Assembly: GCA_965112155.1 (NCBI GenBank)
Contig: OZ218101.1
Direction: 5' to 3' (one strand)
Source: Podarcis liolepis
Lineage: Eukaryota
DNA: 64,000 nt
Part shown: positions 708 to 58,994 of the stretch, piece by piece
Position numbering within the stretch: the stretch's first letter is position 1
Layout: every line of letters starts with the position of its first letter
Translations under genes and position numbers: made by a program
The notes under the pieces: generated by a model
The model's input: the letters and a program-made list of their open reading frames with translations, nothing else
Told to the model about the DNA's origin: nothing
Databases searched by the model: none

Positions 708-879
708 GTGAGTGAACTTTTTTTTTAGCAGCTTTCCTGAGAGGGAGTTAATTAAAATTAGACTGAAGAATAGACATAGCAACTCATTGAAAGGGTACAC
801 ATTTTTATATCGCTGAAGGACAAAGTGGAGTTTCCCTGGCGTTGCTAGGAGCGTTCAGGCTTTGGATGATGTCTTAAAC

Positions 880-1017
880 CAGCCGTTCTCAACCTGTGGG
901 TCCCCAGATGCTGTTGGACTACAACTCCCATCATCCCTGAGCTCTGGCCTTGCTAGCTGGGGGTGATGGGAGTTGTAGTTCAACAACATCTGGGGACCCA
1001 CAGGTTGAGAAAGGCTG
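880..1017. mobile_element. Fold-back hAT-type MITE
   Basis: Long terminal inverted repeats CAGCCGTTCTCAACCTGTGGG.../...CCCACAGGTTGAGAAAGGCTG, 8-bp TSD TCTTAAAC/CCTTAAAC; related decayed copies near 10763-10875, 47240-47338 and 58165-58301. Confidence 0.8.
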
Positions 1018-1369
1018 CCTTAAACGGATGTTATTCTGAAACAGTAGTGGACATTTCCAATTGCCTCTTTGAGGCCATGTCAAGAAGGACAGAGTAGAGA
1101 GCATATGCATTATATTGCTCTTATCTGTAATAAATACTTACTGGTGTTTTGCTTTTAGTGTTTGAATGTGTCAAATGCCAGGTCAGGTAACTGCGTCCTT
1201 TTTCTGCTTCAGGAAGCAATTCCACTGCGTTGCTGTACAAATAAATCATTTAATCAATAAGCGTTCATATTTTTAGAGTAGCAATAGAAAGTTAAGTTGA
1301 AAGGGGGGGGGGAAGTAATTTCAAGAAAATGCTCTGAGAAGTGGCAACTGAAACATTAACAGACCTTTT

Positions 1370-6235: not shown

Positions 6236-6244
6236 GTATGCATA

Positions 6245-6485
6245 CAGTGGTACCTCGGTTTAAGAACAACCCTGTTTATGAACTATTCGGTATACGAACT
6301 CTGCAAAACCGGAAGTAGTGTTCCGGTTAGCGAACTTTACCTCGATCTACGAATGGAAACCAAACAGTGGAAGGGCACTGGTGGCGGGAGGCCTCATTAG
6401 GGAAAGCGCTTCTCGGTTTAAGAACAGCTTTGGTTTAAGAACGGACTTCTAGAACGGATTTAGTTCGAAAACCGAGATACCACTG
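6245..6485. mobile_element. Tc1/mariner MITE
   Basis: TA|CAGTGGTACCTCGGTTT ... AAACCGAGATACCACTG|TA; only 9 nt downstream of the end of exon 10. Confidence 0.85.
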
Positions 6486-6688
6486 TACATAAGAAAATTC
6501 CTCTTTACTCTCCCTGCCTTCTTTTGACCAAAGTTATAAAGGACCATTTTTCAAAAGGGGCTTACTGTCCACTAGTTTCCTTGAAGCTGAATGTCTGTTA
6601 TGTCTGAACGTCAAGAAAAACATCTGCTTTGATACTGACTAGGCATAAACCTAGAACTATATATTAGTATCTTCAGGTTTCAAAAGGC

Positions 6689-10288: not shown

Positions 10289-11400
10289 GTTGGTCTTAAC
10301 CTTTTCTCCTTCATGTTTCATTTTTCTAACTGTGAAGGGCGCTCATTTTTCAGGCAGGAGAGAAGTAATAGGGAAGTATAAAAAGGTGCATGATGTCTAC
10401 ACAGGTCATTTTTTCAGCCAGAACTCAGTTCTGGCACCTCTCAGGTGGGTGCCATTGCTAATCTAAGCGAACAAGTGAGGCATTCATGGTGTGTTCCAGC
10501 ACCTTTCCCCCCAGAAAAATAGCACTAATTAAACTGGTAGTGTATCTTACCTAAACATCTAACATCAGATTGAGGAATCCTTGCTGTTGCAGATGATACT
10601 GTCTCATATTTAAACCATGTTCCTTTCTTTAGAAGCAACCACCTACTTACAAATTTACAAATTATCTGCTTTAATATGTTGTGTTAAAACTGAAACCATT
10701 ATACTTTCAGGGGCTGAGGTTAATGGGTTGGTTCCCACAACACTAAACTCATGGTTTTAGCACAGGACTAGGGAACCTACAGCCCTCCAGATGTTTCTGG
10801 ACTACAATTCCCAGCCATGCTGACTGATGGAGTTGGAGTCCCACAGCATCTGGAGAGCCACAGGTTCCCCACCTGTGGTTCTTAGCACTACACAGATGAG
10901 TTTTTTGAGCCTGAACAAATTGTCAGGCTTCCTCTGCTCTTCTGTCTCTTCCCACACAACTGGGAGGAAGCCAAGGTTACTTTCATTTCAAAGAATCTTA
11001 TCTTACTGATTGTGAGCCAGGAATTCTGGATTGAAACAAACTAAGCTTGCTTTAAACAAGACAACTTCTTAACCAGTTGTTTGAAACGGGTTTGTTTTGC
11101 AAGTAACTATTGTTTGTTTTATAATGGGATGCTTGTTGCATGTAATACTTGAAAGTCGTCTTAACAGAAGCCCTACTTGTGGGAGTAGGAAACAGCCTGC
11201 TCAATCTTGCTGATTCTGAGCTGCATAGGAAAGGCAGCTGTTTGCTAATGTAATTTGTCCAATTTTTGTATTATGAATTAGCCCCACAAAAACGCATTGG
11301 TGTTGCATAATGTGTTCTCTTGCTTAAGCATAATTTGTCTCTAATTTTTGTGTTCTCAAAATGGAAACTGAAATATTTTAAAAAGCAAACAATTATTTTC

Positions 11401-12116: not shown

Positions 12117-12191
12117 AAAGTAGAAAAGAATTATGCTTTTGAGATACCAGATGTTCCTGCAAAATCTGACTACTTAGAAGTTAGATACTCG
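12117..12191 (+). CDS. POLA1: POLA1 exon 13
   Basis: gcatag|AAA...TCG|gtgagt; 75 nt; KVEKNYAFEIPDVPAKSDYLEVRYS. Confidence 0.96.
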
Positions 12192-12641
12192 GTGAGTAAA
12201 TAGTTCTATGTTGTCTCTCTGAAAGTGACACTCACACTGAGGTTTGCATATCTTTTCAGTGCACATGATTTTTTTAAAAGAAAGATTATGAAACCTAAAC
12301 TCTGATGCTTAATAGAGTTTTTAAAATGGTGTGACTATTGCTCAACTTGCGCTACCTTTAGCCAATGAATATTTCCCAAACTCCTACAGTAAGTAAAGAG
12401 GAGCTAGATTTTCTAGTTAACTGCTTTGAGGGAGCATGGGCATGGTGGTCAAGCTTATTGCTTGCCTTACTGTTGCTCTGAAAACTCAGTACTTCAAGCA
12501 ATGCATGTTTGGACTGATTTGAAAGCATTTTTAAAGTCCGTGGTTTAATACATATATATCATTTCCCCTTGGTGAACACTAGAATGTACTTCCTCCTGTG
12601 TGCTGGAGGCAGCCTGATTTAATGTCTACTATGTCCTGAAA

Positions 12642-12829
12642 TACCTTGATGTTGGGAAAGATTGAGGGCACAAGGAGAAGGGGATGACAGAGGACGAGAT
12701 GGTTGGACAGTGTTCTCGAAGCTACCAGCATGAGTTTGACCAAACTGTGGGAGGCAGTGGAAGACAGGAGTGCCTGGCGTGCTCTGGTCCATGGGGTCCC
12801 GAAGAGTCGGAAACGGCTAAACAACAAAA
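12642..12829 (+). mobile_element. Bov-B/RTE LINE 3' fragment
   Basis: TLMLGKIEG...-like RTE C-terminus, CAA-type tail, 11-bp TSD ATGTCCTGAAA (12631-641, 12830-840); similar to 47351-47776. Confidence 0.85.
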
Positions 12830-13035
12830 ATGTCCTGAAACTAGGATGGTTAGGCGATTTCTGTGACAGGTTCAATGCAGCACAAGTGGGCATTCCCACA
12901 CGCAATGGAGTTTTTTCTTCCTGCAACCTCTGATGTGCCTGCCATGTTTTCCTCAGAGGGTTGGTGGAGCCTCAAGCTGAGCAGGTTCAGGTGTATGAAA
13001 GAGTTCCCTGCAAGGAACTCTCTTGTACAGCCAGA

Positions 13036-13330
13036 CTAAGCAGGATTCCCCCCCCCCCTTCCATCAGGTGATGCGTGGGGAGGGCAATCCTGCTTAGCGC
13101 TTACTATTGACAAGCCGCCTGTGCTGCCTCCTTCAGCTTCTGAAATCGGAGGCTGAAAGGAGCAGCAGCATGAAGTGACCTCAAAGAGCAGCACTGGGCG
13201 GGAAAAGGCCCTTCCACTGATTGGGAACCATTTCTGCTTCCATGAGCAAGGTGAACAACTGCTGCTCATCAGCCGATGGGTGGGAAAGAGTGCGGTTTCC
13301 TCCAGCTAACGAAAAACAGAAGCCCATTTT
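13036..13330 (+). other. Predicted multibranch structured RNA domain, intron 13
   Basis: Hand-identified nested helices including a perfect 12-bp stem; see findings. Confidence 0.7.
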
Positions 13331-13450
13331 AAGCTCTCAGTTGTTCCTTTGAAGCCTCACCATTACCCACATATCTGTTTTTACAAGTTAGGATATTTAG
13401 GAAGACTTGCAACACATAGTAACGGTTCGTTGAAATGCTTCCATTCTCAG

Positions 13451-13589
13451 GCTGAATACGGTCGGCTTCCTCAAGACCTGAAAGGAGAGACATTTTCTCA
13501 TGTGTTTGGAACTAACACTTCTAGTCTTGAACTATTCTTGATGGGCAGGAAGATTAAAGGACCAAGCTGGCTGGAAATAAAAGACCCAC
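13451..13589 (+). CDS. POLA1: POLA1 exon 14
   Basis: ttctcag|GCT...CCAC|gtatga; 139 nt; [46 protein letters not shown]. Confidence 0.96.
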
Positions 13590-14492
13590 GTATGAATATT
13601 ACATGTGGAATATGTTATGGATCCCTTGTATGCATGCACAAATGGAGTGGAGTTGTTCAGAGCAGTGCTTAGCTTGTTTAATGGTTGCCAACTTGAAAAG
13701 GGAAATATTACGAAAATGGTTTTTTTAGAATTTGTCAATTTTCAAAGTGAAGAATGCTCCTTCAGGCAGTCATCATCTTGTAAAACTAATTTTATTTTTA
13801 ATCTTACTACTTTAGACTTGGTTAAATCTATACTAGGTTAAATCTACTCGTGTTCCCCAAATGGCACCTGTTGTTCTGTCGTAATGTAGCTGTTGTGTAT
13901 GTGATAGCTTAATATAAAGGTATGGCCAACTTAAAATGGCTCAGGTCCTAGTCCAAGTAAAATAAGTTGTGACTGAGCTGCTATGGACTGATTTGCACAT
14001 AATGCTTAATCATGAATTAGCGCTACGTGGACTATCATGAACAAGCCTGTGTGCAATGTTGGACTCTCACGTCCCCACCCCGCCCCTGGCCATCTGGGAA
14101 GAGGGTTAAAATAAACTGTTTTCTTTCAGTGATGGTAAGGCTGCACTCCTCTACCTGGAAGTACATCCTATTGAACTCAACGAGGCTTTTAAGGAGATTG
14201 TGCCGTCAGTCAAAACGTTATCTGGCTTAGAGTCTAAGCGTGCGTGTAGCAAGGAGAATAGGGTTAGGATTAGGGTTGCTTCTGGGTTTAACATGCTTTG
14301 ATTAGTGTGTTTCATTTCAGGTAGTAAGACCAAGACCTAGGGGAAATGTAGAATGAAAAATATTTGTTATACCTGTATTATGCTATGCTTAATCTTTAGT
14401 GTTGAAATGTTCAATTTGTTGAGAAAAAGTTATAAGTGTAACTATTGTTTAAATATTGGGTATACTTATGTGCATGTTCTGTGTTACCTCAG

Positions 14493-15393: not shown

Positions 15394-15519
15394 ATTGCTT
15401 CAACCTTGGAAAGCCACTGTCAGTCAGTGCAGGCAATATTGAACTAGTTGGATCAATTGTCTAACATTGCATGAGGCAGTCTCCTATGTTCCTATGTCAT
15501 TCTGCAGTGAAGAGTTTTA

Positions 15520-15743
15520 CAGTTGTACCTTGGTTGGTGAATGGAATACGTTCCGGAAGTCCGTTTGACAACCAAGGCGCGGCTTCCGGTTGGCTGCAGG
15601 AGCTTCCTGCACTCAATTGGAAGCCGTGTCAGACATTCAGCTTCCCAAAAAGTTCACAAACCGGAACACTCACTTCTGGGTTTGCGGCATTTGGGTGCCA
15701 AAATGGACGAGTGCCAAGGCGTTCGACAACCAAGGTACGACTG
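15520..15743. mobile_element. Tc1/mariner MITE
   Basis: TA|CAGTTGTACCTTGGTTG ... CAACCAAGGTACGACTG|TA; related to 34111-34360. Confidence 0.85.
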
Positions 15744-16041
15744 TAGTTTGATATGAGAGCATTTCTACATTTCCACATGTCACAGAAATCTAGGAAGACA
15801 ACTAAATTAAGTAGCATTGTAGTCATCAAGGTTTGAAAACAATTTTTGTTTTTCAAAATGGTGTCTGTCCTAATTTCCCTGCCCTATGGAAAGCTTCTGT
15901 ATATTTGAACAACATTTGTTGCAAGCCATACATTGTTTTCATGATAAATATTGTTCTAGCCAAAGCACTTACAGCACATAAAGCCATTTAGCTAAGCTCC
16001 ATATTGTATATTTCCTATTGACCTGGTTGTTTCCTTTGCAG

Positions 16042-25697: not shown

Positions 25698-25830
25698 TGG
25701 ATGCTTGCAGTTTCACATGGTGTCTCCTTTCTGTGGTGACAACTGTGCAGAAGCATCCCAGAGTAACACTGAAGCTATCTGTTCATCCCTGGATAGTTAA
25801 CAGGGTTGGATCGTTCCACTTCTGACATAT
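25698..25830 (+). ncRNA. SCARNA23: Box H/ACA guide RNA, SCARNA23/ACA12 ortholog, predicted guide for U6 snRNA pseudouridine 40
   Basis: Hairpin-hinge-hairpin-tail: 5' stem GGATGCTT(25699-706)/AAGCATCC(25751-758), H box AGAGTA 25760-765, 3' hairpin with pocket TCTG(25778-781) and TCGTTCCA(25811-818) complementary to U6 CAGA and UGGAACGA either side of U40-A41, ACA at 25825-827 14 nt below the pocket and 3 nt from the end. Human SCARNA23 is intronic in POLA1 (recalled). Confidence 0.9.
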
Positions 25831-33609: not shown

Positions 33610-34110
33610 AGTTGGGGGGTGGAATTTTTTTGGTGGGTGGGCGGGCTTTTGTTTCTCTTCTACTGTTTAAAGTATTGTTTTATAGTTAAGTTGCAAAGTC
33701 ACTTTTTGTTTGTTAAAACCCAAAGTATTTTTTTCTTTAAGCTAGGAAGAAAATCAGATCAGGGTGAAGAACGCTTGTAAATATTCTGTTTCAATTCTCA
33801 TTGTTTTGTTTTTTTTAAGCTACACTAAAAGCCCCTTTAGAATAACAGTGTTTGACAGGTCTTGTGAAGCAGCTACTGCTGGCACTGAGTCAGGATGACA
33901 GAGCAATAATTTTAAAAACTGCTTTAGTTACTTAAATACAACTCACTTCTAGGAAGACTGCAATAATTTGTTATCTGGTCTAATCAACTCCATCTTTTCA
34001 TTACTACTTTCCTTGCATGGCTTTTTTTTTTTTAATGTGTGATACACACAATACGGTATCTGAATACAAACAAGGACCAAGAACCAAGTTTCCACTTCCA
34101 CTTCATAGTA

Positions 34111-34587
34111 CAGAAGTGCTTTGGATCCTGAACACCTTGCAAGTTGAACGTTTTGGCTCCCAAATGCCACAAACCCGGAAGTGACTGTTTCGGTTTGCGA
34201 ACTATTTTTGGAAGACGAACGTCCGATGGGTCTTCTGTGGCTTCCGATTGGCCACAGTAGCTTCCTGTGGCCAATCAGAAGCCACACTGGGGTTTCCGAA
34301 TGTTTTGGAAGTCCAACAGACTCCTGGAACAGATTCTCTTCGACTTCCAAGGTACAACTGTACAGTGGTACCTCGGGTTAAGTACTTAATTCGTTCCGTA
34401 GGTCCTTCTTCACCTGAAACTGTTCTTAATCTGAAGCACCACTTCAGCCAATGGGGCCTCCCGCTGCCGCTGCGCCGCCGGAGCACAATTTCTGTTCTCA
34501 TCCTGAAGCAAAGTTCTTAACCTGAGGTACTATTCCTGCGTTAGCGGAGTCTGTAACCTGAAGCGTATGTAATCCGAGGTACCACTG
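34111..34587. mobile_element. Two adjacent Tc1/mariner MITEs sharing one TA (34111-34360 and 34363-34587)
   Basis: TA|CAGAAGTGC...GGTACAACTG|TA|CAGTGGTACCTCGG...CCGAGGTACCACTG|TA. Confidence 0.8.
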
Positions 34588-36383
34588 TACTATTAATGTA
34601 TGAGTATCCATATGTTGGCATACATTGTATCAGAGGAGAAAGGTCTTTAATACGGACGGGCATAGTATTCATTTCCATACACTGGGTTGGATACAGACCT
34701 GCTATCCTGCAAACATACTCTGGTCCAGCAGAGGCTCCCACTGTAGGTAGAGATGGAAGCATTTTTTTCCTGATTCCTGCACTCCCCCCAGCATCCTTCT
34801 CCATTGTGCTGCAGTGTCCCCCAATCCTCTGGACCAGATTTTGAGGGCAATTAGATGGCTGCTGTGGGAATGGGATATTGGCTAATGCCACCCTGCTTCC
34901 ACCAGTGGGAGCATTTCCTGAGTGCAACTCTGTTCAGGGGAAATTTGGGTACAAACCCTTACATTCAGCATTTTAACAGCCCTGTACTCTTTACTATATT
35001 ACCTGGAAGCAAGTAATTCTAATTATGTAATTGTAAGTAATTATGAGATTGCAACAAAAATGCTTTGCTATTGGGTTGGGGAGCCCTTTTCCTCCCCAGG
35101 CTGCTTCCCCCTCTCCCACACTACTGGCTACCAGGTTAACCGGGCAGGCAAGAAGGTGGGTAAACCAAAATGATGGATGCGGTCTCTTTTCCCCAGCCAG
35201 CACTTTTTTGCTTTGCCCTCCTGCTGTAGCTGACTCTGTAGGTCCCACAGAGAGGTTCATGGGCTCAGAAGAAGTAAAGCAGGCAGGCAGGCAGGCAGGC
35301 AGGCTGCTCAGAATCATGTGGACAGGAGCAGGGGATGGGTAGAGGACCAAAAATGACCATGGAACCTAATTCTTACTGGGGTGTGGGCCTGGAGGGGAGT
35401 GGGTGGTTGTAACCCAGATAGAAGGACAGGAAGGCCTGTGGCTCAGGGTCAATGATCCTTCATAGAAAAAAAATGTTTCTCTATTTCTGCTTTATATGAT
35501 GCAACAGGACTGGGCTAAAAATAATGTCCCTCTAAAAGCACCAGAGTAACTTTAGTGACGTTTTTTTCCTAGCTGTGAGCATTGTCTTTGTATTGTTCTA
35601 GAAATTTATTTGCTCTGGTAATATGTTCTAATCTTACACCTCTTAACACTTATGTCCATTTTTTCACTGTTCAGCTCTTTTTCTTTAAACCAGTGTCCAC
35701 AATATTGAATTTTTTTTAAATTGAGCTAAGCTTTAAATTAAAGCACAACAGTCATTTTGTTGTGGCTACCAGTGCCGTCATCTTCTTTTTTTTAAGCATT
35801 TGCTATCCAAGCCCAGAGTGTTTTCCTAGGTCCTGGAAGAACATATTTGGCATGCTTGTTTGTGAAATGAACTTGCAGTGCTGCATTGTCCCATCTTCAT
35901 AATGAGGAAATGACTCTTTGCCAAGACAGGCAACTTCATTTACTGGGGGAGCATGTAAGGTATGCATGATAGTAGATTATCACATTTATCAAGTATCAGT
36001 ACTAACTTGGTATTTGTCCCTGGCCTTTTCTCTGCTAAGTGAAGTCCTATATTTTGTGTCCATCTGTTCTGTCGTTTCTCTCTCTCTCACACACACATAT
36101 ATTGAGAACAGTTGGTACAAATAGTTTATTAATAGTCTGTAGTTCATAGAACTTGATGTAAGGGCTCTGTGCTTTGTATTTCATTTATTTATGTCATATG
36201 ATGTGATGCTTCTGACCCAATGCCATACAGTTTGGGAATATTTTGCTTCTAGTGAGGCCTGCCATTTGGCTGCAGGGGTTCTTGTTTGGAGATTAGGCTT
36301 TTAATGTGTGAATTCTTCAATTACTCGTTACTTCTTCAGAGCTAAAGTTTTTGATAAAGCATTTCAGCTAGAAGCAAACAACA

Positions 36384-39535: not shown

Positions 39536-39866
39536 CAGGGGTCTGCAACCCGCGGCTCTGGAGCCGCATGTGGCTCTTTTACATCTTTGCTGCGGCTCCG
39601 GGGCGGATACTAGCAAGGGGAGGAGGCGCATTGTGTGCCCCGACACTCCTCACTGTGGCGGGCGCTGTACTGGCTGTGACGTCGCATGGGGGCGGTGCGT
39701 GCGTTAGTCACGCACCGTCCCGACGTCACCTTCCCGCCCGCTGTCAGATCGTGGCTCCGGAGATATATTTGTTTTAAATGTCGCAATGGTTTTGCGGCTC
39801 CCAGTTGTTTTTTCTTCGGAAACGGGTCCAAGTGGCTCTTTTTGTCTTAAAGGTTGCAGACCCCTG
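39536..39866. mobile_element. Young hAT MITE
   Basis: Perfect 15-bp TIR CAGGGGTCTGCAACC/GGTTGCAGACCCCTG, perfect 8-bp TSD CACTAGAA, CpG-rich interior. Confidence 0.9.
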
Positions 39867-45800: not shown

Positions 45801-47350
45801 TTAAGAAGTGAATAAATTATTCCACTTCTCAGGGTAATGTACAATACATATAAAGGAACCAAGTGAGTGAGGGTTTTTTACCTGAATAAATGAATCTGGT
45901 GCAAGATAAATATTGAAATGTATGTATATTTCACATGGAGTCCTAAATTACTGGTTATTAGTGGTGACCTAAGCAAGATCAGAGACTAACAGCTTCCTAC
46001 TATAGTTACTTTTCAATAGCTTCTAAAGAGTTCATCCTTAGCCATAACTCCTGGAGTAAGTTGATAAATGCTATCAAAATTAATTTTGGTTACAGCAGTG
46101 CGTTTTCTAATTTAATTCAGGGACTCAGATTTCCAAAGCAACAATTGGATTCCACCCCACATGTATTTCATTTTAAAATACTATGAACCTTCTCCAACAG
46201 CTCGAACATTTTCTTACAGCTTTATATATTTTGGGTAAAGCCTGGCTTTGCCTGTTAGTCGCAAGGTACTGGAATGACTGTTATCTGAGAGACTGTGGGA
46301 CATTCTCCATCCTTTGGGCTTCCCTCTTCCATCATTAAGGAGGCAGAGACAGGTTGCTGAGAGGCTCCTTACCTTCCTGCCACTAACAGGGAAGCAGGGT
46401 TTTGCTTGTGCTATTTTGTGCTCTTTCTCTCACTCTGTCTCTCTCCTCTACTTTCCTTTCCATACCTGCATGGACTAGCCCAGTTACAGAAACCTTTTCT
46501 ATTAAATTGCTGGTTTCACTTGGTACCCTTAAGGGAGAAAGGGGGTGTCTCCAGGGGAAGAGGCAGAACAACCAGAGACTTCATTGAACAAGCTCTTCCC
46601 TAGAGAGCTTTTTCTCACAGCCCTTGGCTAAAGTTGTGTCCACCTCACAGTTTCCCTCCCATTCTCAGAAAGGAGCAATGACCACATCTTCTCTGCCAAA
46701 GGGGTCAGAACGGACCAGTCCGCCCATGCCAGTCCAATTCATTGTACATTCAAGTTCTCTTCCCTACAAAAGACCACCACGAATTCAGTACATTTCTGGT
46801 GCACATACCTGCGGCGAATCATTTTTTCATGACAATAATACCTGCTGGAGGTGAAGGCTTAAGGGTGCTTGTGATAAGCATGTGGAAGCAGCAGCACCCC
46901 CCCCCCCAAGGCTTCAGGGCCTTTTTACCTGCACTGAGGTTTTCTGTCATATAAATGTTTGGGCTTCTTTGCTAGAGCCACCTACCTCTGGGACAGCCAA
47001 AGATGGGCTAAATACTCTCAACAACATTGTTGCTGGATATTGTACAAAACTCTGGAATATCTTGCTCTGACACTGGGAGGCTGACCCAAGATTCAGTATT
47101 GGTTTCTGGGCATGTCTTTTCCTGGGTTAAGATATTTGGCAAAGCCTTAGAGGAAGAGTGGCCCTACAACTTATGTATGTGGTGGTTTTATATTCTGATT
47201 TTATCCTGTCAATAATGGTGGTGGTGGTGATGATGATGATACAACTGTCATCAGCCCCAGCCAGCATTGCCAATAGTCAGATGGTGGCAGCTGTAATCCA
47301 GTAACATCAGGACAGCTACAGATTAGCCGTCCCTGCCTAGTGACAGTGTT

Positions 47351-47776
47351 GTTGCTGTTGTTTAGTCGTGTCTGACTCTTCGTGACCCCATGGACCAGAG
47401 CACGCCAGGCACTCCTGTCTTCCACTGCCTCCCGCAGTTTGGCCAAACTCATGCTGGTAGCTTCAATAACATTATCCAACCATCTCGTCCTCTGTCGTCC
47501 CCTTCTCCTTGTGCCCTCCATCTTTCCCAACATCAGGGTCTTTTCCAGGGAGTCTTCTCTTCTCATGAGGTGGCCAAAGTATTGGAGTCTCAGCTTCAGG
47601 ATCTGTCCTTCCAGTGAGCACTCAGGGCTGACTTCCTTACGAATAGATAGGTTTGATCTTCTTGCAGTCCATGGGACTCTCAAGAGTCTTCTCCAGACCA
47701 TAAATCAAAAGCATCAATCTTTCGGCGATCAGCCTTCTTTATGGTCCAGCTCTCACTGTGAGAAGTGAGAAGCGAG
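47351..47776 (-). mobile_element. Bov-B/RTE LINE 3' fragment
   Basis: ORF 47201-47701(-) WRRLLRVPWTARRSN...YFGHLMRREDSLEKTLMLGKMEG; 12-bp TSD AGTGACAGTGTT (47339-350, 47777-788). Confidence 0.9.
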
Positions 47777-49539: not shown

Positions 49540-49841
49540 NNNNNNNNNNNNNNNNNNNNNNNNNNNNNNNNNNNNNNNNNNNNNNNNNNNNNNNNNNNNN
49601 NNNNNNNNNNNNNNNNNNNNNNNNNNNNNNNNNNNNNNNNNNNNNNNNNNNNNNNNNNNNNNNNNNNNNNNNNNNNNNNNNNNNNNNNNNNNNNNNNNNN
49701 NNNNNNNNNNNNNNNNNNNNNNNNNNNNNNNNNNNNNNNNNNNNNNNNNNNNNNNNNNNNNNNNNNNNNNNNNNNNNNNNNNNNNNNNNNNNNNNNNNNN
49801 NNNNNNNNNNNNNNNNNNNNNNNNNNNNNNNNNNNNNNNNN
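49540..49841. other. Assembly gap (302 N)
   Basis: Run of N; the true length of intron 26 is uncertain. Confidence 1.
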
Positions 49842-50738: not shown

Positions 50739-52015
50739 GTAGTAACAAATGTTTTTTTTTTATTATCTAGCAACCCTTAAATAGAATATCTAGTGACTTA
50801 TTTTTTTAAAAAAACAACTATGAAAATGGTAGCCCAAATAATCGAAGTCACTTCTCAGGATGTCTAGTTTACAAATGCAATCCTTCCTAGTGGATTATAG
50901 CTCCCCCTCCTTTTGTGGGAAGGGGGAAAGCAGATGTGATCTAATCCCTGCTTGAAGCCTATGTTTGAGTATTTTGGACAAATTAGTAACAGTGCTAATT
51001 AGAGTTTAGTCACAGGCCAGTAACTATGTGTTCTAATGTCCTTTTTTGGGGACTGATACCCCCACCCCTTTCCTCTCTGTCTTGTAGTCTAGGAATACAA
51101 TATTTTATTTTCTATGGGTAGGATCAAAGGATCTGTGAGAAGAAAGAAAATAACTGCTTGTGGTGTTCTGTGACCACTTGCATATGAGTTGGTGCAAACA
51201 GTACTGCAATAGTATTCTATTTGCAGAAGTTATACAGGTAGAAAGCACCTTTTGGTTCTACTTTTCACTTTTGTCATGCAGTGAGTTAGCATGAGGTGTA
51301 AAACGGGGTTGTATTTAACATTGATGTTTCAGCAGACCTCTGCTTGCTCAGTTAAATTTCCCCCTCCCCCTCTTGCACATCCTCAAAATCTGGTCCAGAG
51401 GGTTGGAGGACCCTCCAGAGCTGATTTTGAGAGCCTGTTAGGCGAAGAGCAGAAGAGGAAGTCTCATTGTGTGAGCAGAATTCTGCACGCGCAGCATTGG
51501 ATGCAGGCCAGGGGCAATGGCTTTACAAAATTGCGCAAGTCTCTTGTGCCTGCCCTGCAAAGAATCCTACATGGCAAATACAAACCAGCTGTCCCATTAA
51601 GATGTAATAGCAGACTGTGCTATTAGGAGCTAGCTAATTAAACAGTGTAAATGGGAAGGAGGGAACGCTCAAGTACAGGGCTCATTCCATGTACCACCAA
51701 CCATGGTTTTTGGTACACGTGAAACAACCCACTATAGAAAGACAAATAATATTTTGTGTGAACAGACCCAATGTCAGTACAGTGGCTACAAGGAGGACTT
51801 GCAATAAAATGTTGCTGCTCAGATTTCTAGACATTCCATTCCTACTCTTCCCTCCCAGTTTTGGGCTTCCCCTCAACCATTTATCAGAATTCTATATCCA
51901 CCCAGCATGCTCCGTACTCACTGGGTTGTGTGTTGATGTTTTATTATTTGTCTTTCTGTAGTGGGTTGCTTCACATGTACCACAAACCATATATACTTTC
52001 TGTAGTTATCATGTA

Positions 52016-52451
52016 CAGTGGTGCCCCGCAAGACGAATGCCTCGCAAGACGGAAAACTCGCTAGACGAAAGGGTTTTCCGTTTTTGAGTTGCTTCGCAGG
52101 ACAAATTTCCCTATGGGCTTGCTTTGCAAGACGAAAATGTCTTGCGAGTCTTGAGATTTTTTTTTGCTCCCCCCCTTTCTTCTAAGCCGCTAATAGCAGC
52201 TAAGCCGCTAAGCCTTTAATAGCCGCTAAACCGCTAATAGCGCTAATCCACTAAACTGCTAATAGGGTTGCTTCGCAAGACGAAAAAACCACTAGCCTTT
52301 TAGCAGCTAAGCCGATAAGCCTTTAATAGCCGCTAAACCGCTAATAGCGCTAATCCGCTAAGCCGCTAATAGGGTTGCTTCGCAAGACGAAAAAACCGCT
52401 AGACGAATACACTCGCGGAACGGATTAATTTCGTCTTGCGAGGCACCACTG
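52016..52451. mobile_element. Tc1/mariner MITE with internal tandem duplication of about 100 bp
   Basis: TA|CAGTGGTGCCCCGCAAGACGAA ... TTCGTCTTGCGAGGCACCACTG|TA; duplicated GCCGCTAA-rich block at about 52193-52290 and 52301-52398. Confidence 0.88.
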
Positions 52452-52578
52452 TACATATATATGGCAGCTACTTTCTGCTCCTCTTGTCAAAGAAGTTATG
52501 TTAGATTTCTGACATGTCAGTTTTCAGTGTCCAAACAATGGTGTGTAATCTGTGTTACTTTGCTTATGCCCTTCTTAG

Positions 52579-56007: not shown

Positions 56008-57652
56008 TAGAAGCAGGGTTTACTGAAATAGTGGTATTTACTCTTAAATAAACATGTTTTAGATCAAAGGTGGTGCTTTACAGAAGGTTATTCCAAGATG
56101 GGTGGATTCAGCTACCACGCAAACAGATGCAGCCAACTTGGAACCGATTTAAATGCTTGACCTCATAGTAAATTGAGAGGCAGCATGATGGAGCGGTTAA
56201 TGTCAGATGAAATGGGAAAGGACCTATGTACACTGTCCTGATTTCCTTGGGGGAAAATGCAGCATATAATCTAACAAAATATGAATAGATAATGTGTGTT
56301 TGCCATCTTTTCTGGTCTAAGTTTTCTTCCTGCCTTTTCCTGTTAGGCAGAAACGACTCTGGGAAAAGTGTTTGTGTCTGTGTGTTTGCAAATATGTGGT
56401 GTGTGTGCGCATGCACACACCTCCCCCCCCCCCATCTTGGATTTTGCTGTTATCTACAATTCACAGCTGCTTTTAAACAGAAAAATGTTGGTTTGCATCC
56501 AGTGGTGGTGCTTGGCTGATGGTAAGGCTTCCTTTGGCAGGATAGGGAGGAAAGCAATTTTCAGTGATTCCCAGATCTCCGTGTAGCCTCTGCACCTCTC
56601 CTCCTCCTCCAAAATCTGTTATGGAGGGTTGTGTTTTTCAGGGGCAGAGGTTACTGAAATGAGCTTTCTTCTCTGTTCCTCTGATGGAAGCCTTACCATA
56701 AGTCGAGCAACATAATTGGATATAACACACTGTTAATGAAATAAAGGTTTTAGAGGGGCCAGGCGGGAGGCACACTTCATCAAATTCACCCTTTTCTAAG
56801 AAGGAAAGCAATAGTATTTTGCTGTCTTAGCACCTACAAATTGGGACTGTTATTTGATTCGGAAATCCCCTAGTTTTTGAGAGTTCACACTACTCATAGC
56901 ACCTTTAATTAAAATTGCCTTACTAAAAGTAGCAGGTAGCTTTCTTACACAGGTCATCCTGACGTTTGGGTACAAGAGGGAAAGCTCAGTGGTAGGGAAT
57001 TAAGGAGGGACTGTTAGTTCTGCTCCCATCCAGGTAATGTTTGCAGCATTATTCATCAGTATTCCCTCCATGACAGAAGATATGGGGGGCCTGCCCTCAC
57101 CCCTGCTTAGCTCCTTGGTAATCCGTGGTGTGGTATAGTGGTTAGAGTGTTGGACTAAGACCTGGGAGACCCAGGGTTCAAATTCCCACTCAACGATCCA
57201 GCTCACTGCATGACCTTGGCCATTTTCTTAGCCTAATCTACTTCACAGGATTGTTGTGAGGATAAAATGGGGTGGAGGACAACTATGTACATGACTGTGA
57301 ACTCCTTGCAGGAAAGGTGGGGTATAAATGTGAAAATAAATAAACAACCACTGGAAACTGGTTAACCTTTTGTGGCATATTTGAATAAATTTACACTTGC
57401 GTTTTGGAAAATGCTTAATAGGAAAATAAATGTTAGCTTAATTATTACTAATGTTTGGACTGGTAGCGTGCATCCCATGGAGCTAGTTTAAAGTTGTGGT
57501 GGTAACCTGGTATTCCACCTGAAGAAAATATCTACACAAAAGTAATTGGAAAATATTCTTCCTGTAAATTCTGAGGAACATAGTGTGCTGCAGGTGCGTA
57601 CTGTGTGTTTTTCAAAAATGTGTTTTCTCACACGCCTAAACTTTTCTTACAG

Positions 57653-57785: not shown

Positions 57786-58994
57786 GTAAATAGTTTTGGT
57801 TTTTTTAACTGTTATGCCTGAATTTGTTTGAATGTATTCCATTCTCTCCTGGTGTCCATTTTTTGTGTTCATGGTAGCTGATCTTTTAGCAATTGCAGAG
57901 AGCATTTCTTAAAACATTTTAAAATTCTGACAGGAACAAAGAAAGTTAAAAAGAAAAAAGAATCTAAGTTTTAATCAGAGAGGAAGGCAAGATTTGTCTA
58001 GTGTAAGCCAAATTTGTACATAAATCTTTCCCTCAGATCTGTCTTTTTGCTCCCCCCCAAACCTCCCTCTCCAAACTGAACCAAGGCTTACAGTAGGGAG
58101 TGCCACACTTTCTCAGCATACTGCTTTTCATAAACCCATATTTCAAGCATAAGTAGTTTAAATAAGAGTTAGGGAACCTGTAGCCCTCCAGGTGTTGTTG
58201 GACTACAGCTGCCGTCATCCCTGACGGCTGGTCGTGGTGCCTTGGGCTGATGGGATTTGGAGTCCCAACAGCTTTTGGAAGGCGACAGGTTTCCCACCCT
58301 TTATTTCAGTCAATATATTTCTGAGCAGGTCAAGCATTTTTCTCAACCCCTGTAGGTGGGGCATGTTTGAACAGAAAGAGGAGCAGGTATGTATACAGTT
58401 GGTTAAACATTACAAACAGGATCTGAAAGCAGTACCCTCCTTTGTTGTAAATCCCCAACATTTGATATTTGGTCTGACCGTGGAGATTCTGTTTTGCTGC
58501 AATGACTGATGGAGAGCTCTTGATAGATGGACTGTTCATGAATCTGTGCCATCCATTTTAAAAGGTCATTCCCTTTCTATCCTGTAGTATATATTTTAAG
58601 TTGACTTTATTTCCTCTCCTTCCAAGTTTCCTGAAGTATTCTGACTTTACCCATTCTCCCTGTCCATTTATTTTAATCAATGACATCATTTATCTCTTCT
58701 GAGGGAGTGAGCCATTATTTGAGCCAAGTTAGAAGGGATGGATCTGCTCCTTAGCTTCTTGACATCATTCTGAATCTCTGTCTGCATTGCTATCCTTTAT
58801 GAGTTTTGTTGCCCAAGATGGCAACTAGGAAGGAAATGCCCAGGTAAAAATAAATAATCTCATTTTACAAGCCAGTTTATGGAAAGCAACAGACACAGAA
58901 CTTAATATTTATGCTATTTCAAACGTTGATGAATTTTGCAGTAGTTTTACCAGCAATTTCCCCTCTGTATTCTTTTTCTTTGATATATATATAG

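What the first reader, a model, noticed from the sequence alone, without database searches (positions are those of the whole stretch)
13036..13330. Intron 13: very stable 300-nt domain upstream of exon 14
Seen: perfect 12 bp CTAAGCAGGATT(13036-47)/AATCCTGCTTAG(13086-97) extended by C-run/G-run pairs; CCGCCT-GTGCTGC(13115-27)/GCAGCAC-T-GGGCGG(13188-201) enclosing CTCC-TTCAGCTTC(13128-40)/GAGGCTGAA-A-GGAG(13149-62); ATGAGCA(13242-48)/TGCTCAT(13263-69) within TTCCAC/GTGGGA. CpGs are retained. Ends about 120 nt before the acceptor.
Basis: seen in the sequence. Interest (0 to 1): 0.75.

Follow-up and report, generated by a model that had tools for sequence, protein, structure and literature searches.

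The report
Decayed repeat hairpins in lizard POLA1
Two real hairpins in an intron of a lizard DNA polymerase gene share pieces with scattered sequences elsewhere in the genome, so they are likely the ordinary remains of an old mobile repeat and not a purpose-built RNA domain.

Summary
The window is a squamate POLA1 locus; this is the intron before residue 459, human intron 13. It is not one domain: two hairpins are significant, the last third folds at chance (z -0.55), and the antisense strand folds equally well (z -3.8). CpG retention is slight (o/e 0.37 against 0.27). Laid at 80% likeness, DNA contigs of two species show extra contigs on three blocks and two contigs joining those blocks in the same order, while exon 14 stays flat. 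The left neighbour is a decayed palindromic repeat. No Rfam family, snoRNA layout or Pfam hit. Best reading: an old, low-copy, unclassified hairpin repeat with no function. Much of the stretch drew no paralog, and bird or mammal conservation could not be tested. One lead remains: hairpin 1 covers the intron's most pyrimidine-rich unused splice acceptor.

The parts
12117..12191 (+). POLA1 exon upstream of the intron (human exon 13 equivalent), phase 0, donor TCG|GTGAGT
   Evidence: read from the sequence; donor printed
12642..12829 (+). 5'-truncated retroelement tail (RTE/BovB-like by recall) with 11-bp target duplication at 12631-41 and 12830-40; used as positive control for multi-copy sequence
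   Evidence: duplication; second copy at 47356-47543, 92.6%; summed depth about 4 million against 42
12901..13035 (.). Decayed copy of a palindromic interspersed repeat that has three other copies in the window; includes hairpin 12992-13029; abuts the finding
   Evidence: profile from copies at 34.7, 51.3 and 56.5 kb hits 12913-13022, E 0.0044, no hit in the reversed window
13036..13097 (.). Hairpin 1: 21-bp arms, 19 of 21 Watson-Crick; folds better antisense (-43.0) than sense (-35.3); block A with extra contigs
   Evidence: bins 13040-13099
13036..13067 (+). Acceptor-like motif inside hairpin 1: CTAAG (branch-point-like by recall), C11TTCCAT, CAG, followed directly by donor-like GTGATG; use not shown
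   Evidence: 16 of 17 pyrimidines, best in the intron, 7 of 4189 AG in the window as good; motif and most of the tract paired, AG unpaired
13122..13170 (.). Hairpin 2: arms differ by two C-to-T changes (one at a CpG) and two single-base gaps; absent from one paralog
   Evidence: table 5c (13101 to 13181 with 18 other letters)
13164..13198 (.). Block B, shared with two separate contigs in run X4 and one in X17 (left edge estimated from bin depths)
   Evidence: tables 2, 5, 5c
13213..13284 (+). Third predicted hairpin; chance-level, no paralog laid on 13220-13309
   Evidence: z -0.55
13310..13369 (.).
   Evidence: at 13337, 14 contigs in X1, 9 in X4 (one the ortholog), 4 in X17 read C; summed depth 13.7 and 12.9 times baseline
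13451..13589 (+). POLA1 exon = human residues 459-504 (exon 14); single-copy control
   Evidence: E 2.9e-22 to the 1462-aa chain; flat depth 42.3 and 10.8

Best explanation
The stretch holds two real DNA palindromes in POLA1 intron 13 of a lizard and is likely a decayed copy of an old, low-copy, hairpin-rich interspersed repeat, probably of the non-autonomous DNA-transposon kind, whose RNA folding is a by-product. Shown: the hairpins, the shared blocks on other contigs in two species, the strand-neutral folding, presence at the same place in a related species. Inferred: the palindromes came in with the element, it inserted before these species split, it has since drifted (arm mismatches, C-to-T changes, slippage in the C run, loss of hairpin 2 in one paralog), and the intron is spliced out with the hairpins as passengers. 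The transposon class is not established.
For: (contigs at 80% likeness): extra depth on 13040-13099 (X1 64-104 against 42.3; X4 27-43 against 10.8), 13160-13219 and 13310-13369 (X1 354-439; X4 92-95); one contig joins 13101 to 13181 (X4), another 13198 to 13317 (X4, X17), blocks in the same order; exon 14 flat, so no gene duplication. Sense and antisense fold alike (z -4.02 and -3.79; G.U in 6 of 59 and 8 of 49 confident pairs). The abutting 12901-13035 is a decayed palindromic repeat. Stronger hairpins in the window are inverted-repeat elements. No excess conservation against the related species: 6 changed sites in 295 nt inside, 7 in 405 nt outside, p 0.78. No Rfam, snoRNA-layout or Pfam support. 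Repeats fill about 38% of two lacertid genomes, 12% unclassified (PMC10214862, passages); short non-autonomous elements mimic ncRNA hairpins (PMC3495686, abstract).
Against: No second copy of the stretch in the window. About 13220-13309 and most of 13100-13150 drew no extra contig, and no paralog was read in full. The tool warns that summed contig depth is no copy number. No terminal inverted repeat over 7 bp and no target duplication over 5 bp. In the related species none of the five substitutions inside breaks a stem pair (three C-G to U.G, one repairs a C.A mismatch, one unpaired), which selection would also give; but four lie in one C run and C-to-T opposite G always keeps a pair. Counted as events, 2 in 295 against 7 in 405 (p 0.32), a weak test.
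Confidence: 0.7

Rival explanations
1. Repeat-derived but kept: hairpin 1 would pair the branch-point-like motif and pyrimidine tract of an unused acceptor at 13067 and so protect exon 14 splicing. If used, the site would give either a zero-length recursive site (AG|GTGATG) or a 183-nt exon to a donor at 13251 with a stop at codon 10, a poison exon.
For:: best pyrimidine count in the intron (16 of 17; the true acceptor has 11 of 17); donor-like 7 of 9 at 13068 and 13251; 13036-46 paired above 0.95, most of the C run mostly paired. The related species has more U in the tract with pairing kept. A repeat-derived hairpin controls exon inclusion in a human case (PMC4615370, abstract). Human intron 13 holds a cryptic exon whose activation causes XLPDR (PMC10178534, PMC7846528, passages).
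Against: No splice joint in X17 or X23, and the one RNA-labelled contig crosses 13251 unspliced; X23 had no depth even on exon 14, so it says nothing. The score is a crude count. C-rich tracts are poor acceptors and pseudo-sites are common (own knowledge). The tract is itself part of the palindrome arm. No homology to the human intron was shown.
Confidence: 0.09
2. A unique-sequence region whose two hairpins arose locally (fold-back copying or chance in GC-rich DNA), with only short unrelated repeat fragments at its edges; no function.
For: No in-window copy; baseline depth over much of the stretch; no termini found.
Against: Two contigs carry blocks from both sides of hairpin 2, or from B and C, in the same order; only 7 perfect 12-bp inverted repeats with arms within 100 nt were seen in 64 kb outside the N gap, so chance alone is a poor source.
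Confidence: 0.14
3. A conserved structured intronic RNA element or undescribed small RNA (editing substrate, stable intronic RNA, snoRNA-like).
For: z -4.0; POLA1 hosts a real scaRNA in another intron; a 161-nt contig on 13175-13335 in a run guessed to be RNA.
Against: No Rfam match at gathering score; best E 0.2, on the antisense strand, to an unrelated hairpin family. No H box or ACA at hairpin bases, no exact C box. No strand bias. The RNA contig has depth 3.7, about what two read pairs of one fragment would give (inference), covers the chance-level third and neither strong hairpin.
Confidence: 0.07

Closest known systems
Non-autonomous DNA transposons and MITEs that mimic ncRNA hairpins (PMC3495686, abstract)
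   Same: Short, non-coding, palindromic, dispersed pieces, intronic, folds on both strands
   Different: No terminal inverted repeats or target duplication found; few and divergent copies; CpG more decayed than the MITE-like elements in this window; superfamily not assigned
Truncated, low-copy transposon remnants in lacertid introns (PMC10058329, passages)
   Same: A single-locus stretch containing a degenerate transposon piece with tens of copies in relatives
   Different: No sequence comparison with those elements was made; family identity untested
Human POLA1 intron 13 cryptic exon 13a, XLPDR c.1375-354A>G (PMC10178534, PMC7846528, passages)
   Same: Same intron position in the gene; an unused acceptor a few hundred nt before exon 14
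   Different: No sequence homology shown; no evidence that the lizard site is used
MIR-derived single-hairpin exon (PMC4615370, abstract)
   Same: Repeat-derived hairpin that contains splice signals
   Different: That exon is shown to be spliced; here only motifs are seen

Membership tests
MITE / non-autonomous DNA transposon | Dispersed copies in the genome | tested here: met
   extra contigs on three blocks, 14 contigs at 13337 in X1, two ordered joints; partial and low-copy, no full paralog read
MITE / non-autonomous DNA transposon | Terminal inverted repeats at both ends | tested here: inconclusive
   longest exact match 7 bp between 12980-13060 and 13300-13420; ends unknown and decay would hide them
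MITE / non-autonomous DNA transposon | Target-site duplication | tested here: inconclusive
   only 5-bp matches, chance level
MITE / non-autonomous DNA transposon | No coding capacity | tested here: met
   longest stop-to-stop frame inside 89 aa; 0 Pfam hits for 10 of the 15 listed frames
MITE / non-autonomous DNA transposon | Match to a curated consensus or an empty orthologous site | not testable with these tools
   No Dfam or Repbase library and no genome held; the one related species read carries it
H/ACA snoRNA or scaRNA | Hairpin, H box, hairpin, ACA three bases from the end | tested here: not met
   no ANANNA in the hinge after hairpin 1; nearest after hairpin 2 is 15 nt off; ACA 32 nt after hairpin 3; no Rfam hit
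C/D snoRNA | RUGAUGA near the 5' end and CUGA near the 3' end, closed by a stem | tested here: not met
   no exact C box; the one 1-mismatch match (13068) lies in the loop region of hairpin 1
pre-microRNA | Discrete 22-nt reads from a conserved single hairpin | not testable with these tools
   No small-RNA run laid; miRNA models scored 14-18 bits against thresholds of 52-100
Conserved intronic RNA structure | Orthologous sequence with compensatory changes across amniotes | not testable with these tools
   Only one close ortholog read (11 substitutions and 2 indels in 838 nt); no change on both sides of a pair
Poison exon or recursive splice site | Junction reads at 13067 or 13251 | tested here: inconclusive
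   none, but the raw RNA run had no depth on exon 14 either

The most novel reading that the evidence does not exclude
A transposon-derived hairpin hides a strong unused splice acceptor in lizard POLA1 intron 13 and so acts as a structural switch for a poison exon or recursive splice site, in the same intron where a cryptic exon causes human XLPDR.
Probability: 0.07. Interest if true: 0.55.

Novelty: new member of a known kind. Interest (0 to 1): 0.14.

Why it matters
As a decayed repeat copy it matters little: it shows how lizard introns full of palindromic repeats give false structured-RNA candidates. If the splice-masking reading held, it would be a natural, independently arisen control point for POLA1 dose in the intron behind a human interferonopathy, testable with one minigene.

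Tried and rejected
Own-genome copy count: no genome held. In-window BLAST and nhmmer for the 295 nt: self-matches only, next best E 0.68. Pattern of the hairpin 1 arms in metagenomes: 30 loci, all 59-70% GC contigs with a different short palindromic repeat, 24 of 30 with an 18-nt spacer, no lizard-like flank; rejected as coincidence. Block C pattern in viral and prokaryote contigs: 0 and 0. Rfam: nothing here at gathering score; 11 weak matches below threshold. Pfam on 10 of 15 frames: 0. Expression: no RNA holder listed on record; raw RNA run X23, about 12% read, had no depth on 12860-13669, exon included, so editing and splicing were not assessed. Earlier findings: six look-ups, nothing that bears on this. 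Papers: 0 hold POLA1 + intron + RNA secondary structure + cryptic splice + conserved; searches for lizard hairpin repeats listed no description of this family (listings only); the library lacks most subscription papers, and no supplements were opened. Helitron, solo LTR and SINE anatomy were considered by eye and gave no convincing ends.

Full report
Context. The exon that starts at 13451 translates to a 46-residue stretch matching human DNA polymerase alpha catalytic subunit residues 459-504. The intron runs 12192-13450. The repeats in the window (Tc1/mariner-like MITEs, an RTE-like tail, a hAT-like element) point to a squamate, probably a lacertid lizard; these family names and the taxon are recalled, not from a call. 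No whole genome was held.

The observation. The arms are as stated. The 295 nt fold at -119.3 kcal/mol, z -4.02, 0 of 200 shuffles. The signal comes from two hairpins: 13036-97 (z -5.3) and 13122-67 (z -6.3). The last third, 13206-92, is at chance (z -0.55). The long outer stem competes with hairpin 2 and is only partly predicted. A third significant hairpin lies just upstream, 12992-13029. In the window the finding is 3rd of 216 tiles of 295 nt by energy; among the 40 most stable tiles, for which z was computed, two score better. Its 150-nt tiles rank 19th and 30th of 639. CpG o/e is 0.37 against 0.27, matched by 47 of 216 tiles and well under five nearby MITE-like elements at 0.67-1.31.

DNA palindrome or RNA structure. 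The antisense strand folds as well: -125.5, z -3.79. Hairpin 1 is better antisense, hairpin 2 better sense. G.U makes up 6 of 59 confident pairs on the sense strand and 8 of 49 on the other. The arms of hairpin 2 differ by two C-to-T changes, one at a CpG, and two single-base gaps, as drift of a palindrome would give (inference).

Copy test. A run search with 12850-13440 listed 24 runs of six organism labels, shares 0.58-1.00 for the 16 best. Four runs were laid on 12770-13669 at 80% likeness. The retroelement tail, as positive control, gave summed depth in the millions; exon 14, as single-copy control, stayed at 42.3 (X1) and 10.8 (X4). In between, extra contigs lay on 13040-13099, 13160-13219 and 13310-13369. 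At 13337, 14 contigs in X1, 9 in X4 (one is the ortholog) and 4 in X17 read C; summed depth is 13.7 and 12.9 times baseline, which the tool says is no copy number. One X4 contig runs from 13101 through 18 other letters to 13181, so it lacks hairpin 2; another, in X4 and X17, goes from 13198 to 13317. The ortholog contig of X4 spans 12832-13669 unbroken, so I read these as paralogs, not alleles. Against this reading: 13220-13309 drew nothing, the link between hairpins and block C rests on two contigs, most pieces were not shown (7565 more), and no copy lies in the window. The left neighbour 12901-13035 matches a profile of three other palindromic repeats in the window (E 0.0044; none in the reversed control). 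No termini or target duplication were found.

Conservation. The X4 ortholog differs by 11 substitutions and 2 indels in 838 nt: 6 sites in the 295 nt, 7 in 405 nt of flanking intron (p 0.78; as events 2 against 7, p 0.32). None of the five substitutions inside breaks a stem pair, and none changes both sides. The species are too close for power. Birds and mammals could not be aligned.

Known RNA or protein families. Rfam finds only SCARNA24 at 25698-25830 and nothing near threshold here. Box motifs are not placed as in snoRNAs. Ten of 15 frames were scanned against Pfam, with no hit.

RNA evidence. The raw RNA run showed no depth on intron or exon, so it is uninformative. The run guessed to be RNA has one 161-nt contig, 13175-13335, depth 3.7, unspliced; I infer one or two fragments.

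How it most likely works. An old hairpin-rich repeat inserted beside another decayed repeat before these species split, and it is removed with the intron; its stems form in pre-mRNA only as a by-product (0.70). Rivals: local unique palindromes (0.14), a kept splice-masking role (0.09), a conserved structured RNA (0.07). The splice lead is this: hairpin 1 contains a branch-point-like motif, a C11 tract and CAG at 13067, the most pyrimidine-rich acceptor in the intron (16 of 17; true acceptor 11 of 17; 7 of 4189 AG in the window as good), followed by a donor-like hexamer, with a second donor at 13251 that would give a 183-nt exon with a stop at codon 10. The motif and most of the tract are predicted paired. 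A repeat-derived hairpin can govern exon choice (PMC4615370, abstract). No read supports use of the site.

Literature seen. Passages: PMC10178534, PMC7846528, PMC7831139 (no relevant passage), PMC10058329, PMC10214862. Abstract and outline: PMC3495686, PMC4615370. Listings only. One search found no paper on a conserved POLA1 intronic structure among those held. No supplements were opened; repeat libraries there could name the family.

Verdict. Real hairpins, ordinary origin; an unclassified copy of a known kind of sequence. Interest 0.14.

Noticed in passing
window 25698-25830 (+): Intronic scaRNA, Rfam SCARNA24 model, 91 bits against threshold 70; the real structured RNA of this window.
   Followed up: no
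L001-L030 (metagenome contigs): A short bacterial-looking palindromic repeat in 59-70% GC contigs, often two hairpins in tandem between genes, has the same 12-base arms as hairpin 1. Unrelated to the lizard sequence; resembles alphaproteobacterial palindromic elements by recall.
   Followed up: partly
window 12642-12829 and 47356-47543: Two 188-nt copies (92.6%) of a truncated retroelement tail; the first has a perfect 11-bp target duplication.
   Followed up: partly
window 6243-6487, 15518-15745, 34102-34590, 52011-52456: TA-flanked MITE-like elements with 24-27 bp terminal inverted repeats and high CpG; the two at 34.1-34.6 kb are adjacent; the one at 52 kb carries an internal 107-nt duplication.
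   Followed up: partly
window 39536-39866: GC-rich element with terminal inverted repeats and an 8-bp target duplication, hAT-like by recall.
   Followed up: no
window 874-1023, 10771-10869, 58170-58291, 47249-47324: Family of long fold-back repeats; the first gives the best folding score in the window (z -8.6).
   Followed up: no
window 34705-34941, 51319-51502, 56498-56720, 12901-13035: Old palindromic repeat family of about 170-230 nt, four copies in the window.
   Followed up: partly
window 51703-51990: 49-bp inverted repeat (92%) with 190 nt between the arms, next to the 52-kb MITE-like element.
   Followed up: no
window 49540-49841: Assembly gap of about 300 N.
   Followed up: no
window 13175-13335, runs X17 and X18: Two runs guessed to be RNA, same study, both hold 0.32 of the words; only X17 was laid, giving one low-depth 161-nt contig. 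Whether X18 holds the same piece is unknown.
   Followed up: partly
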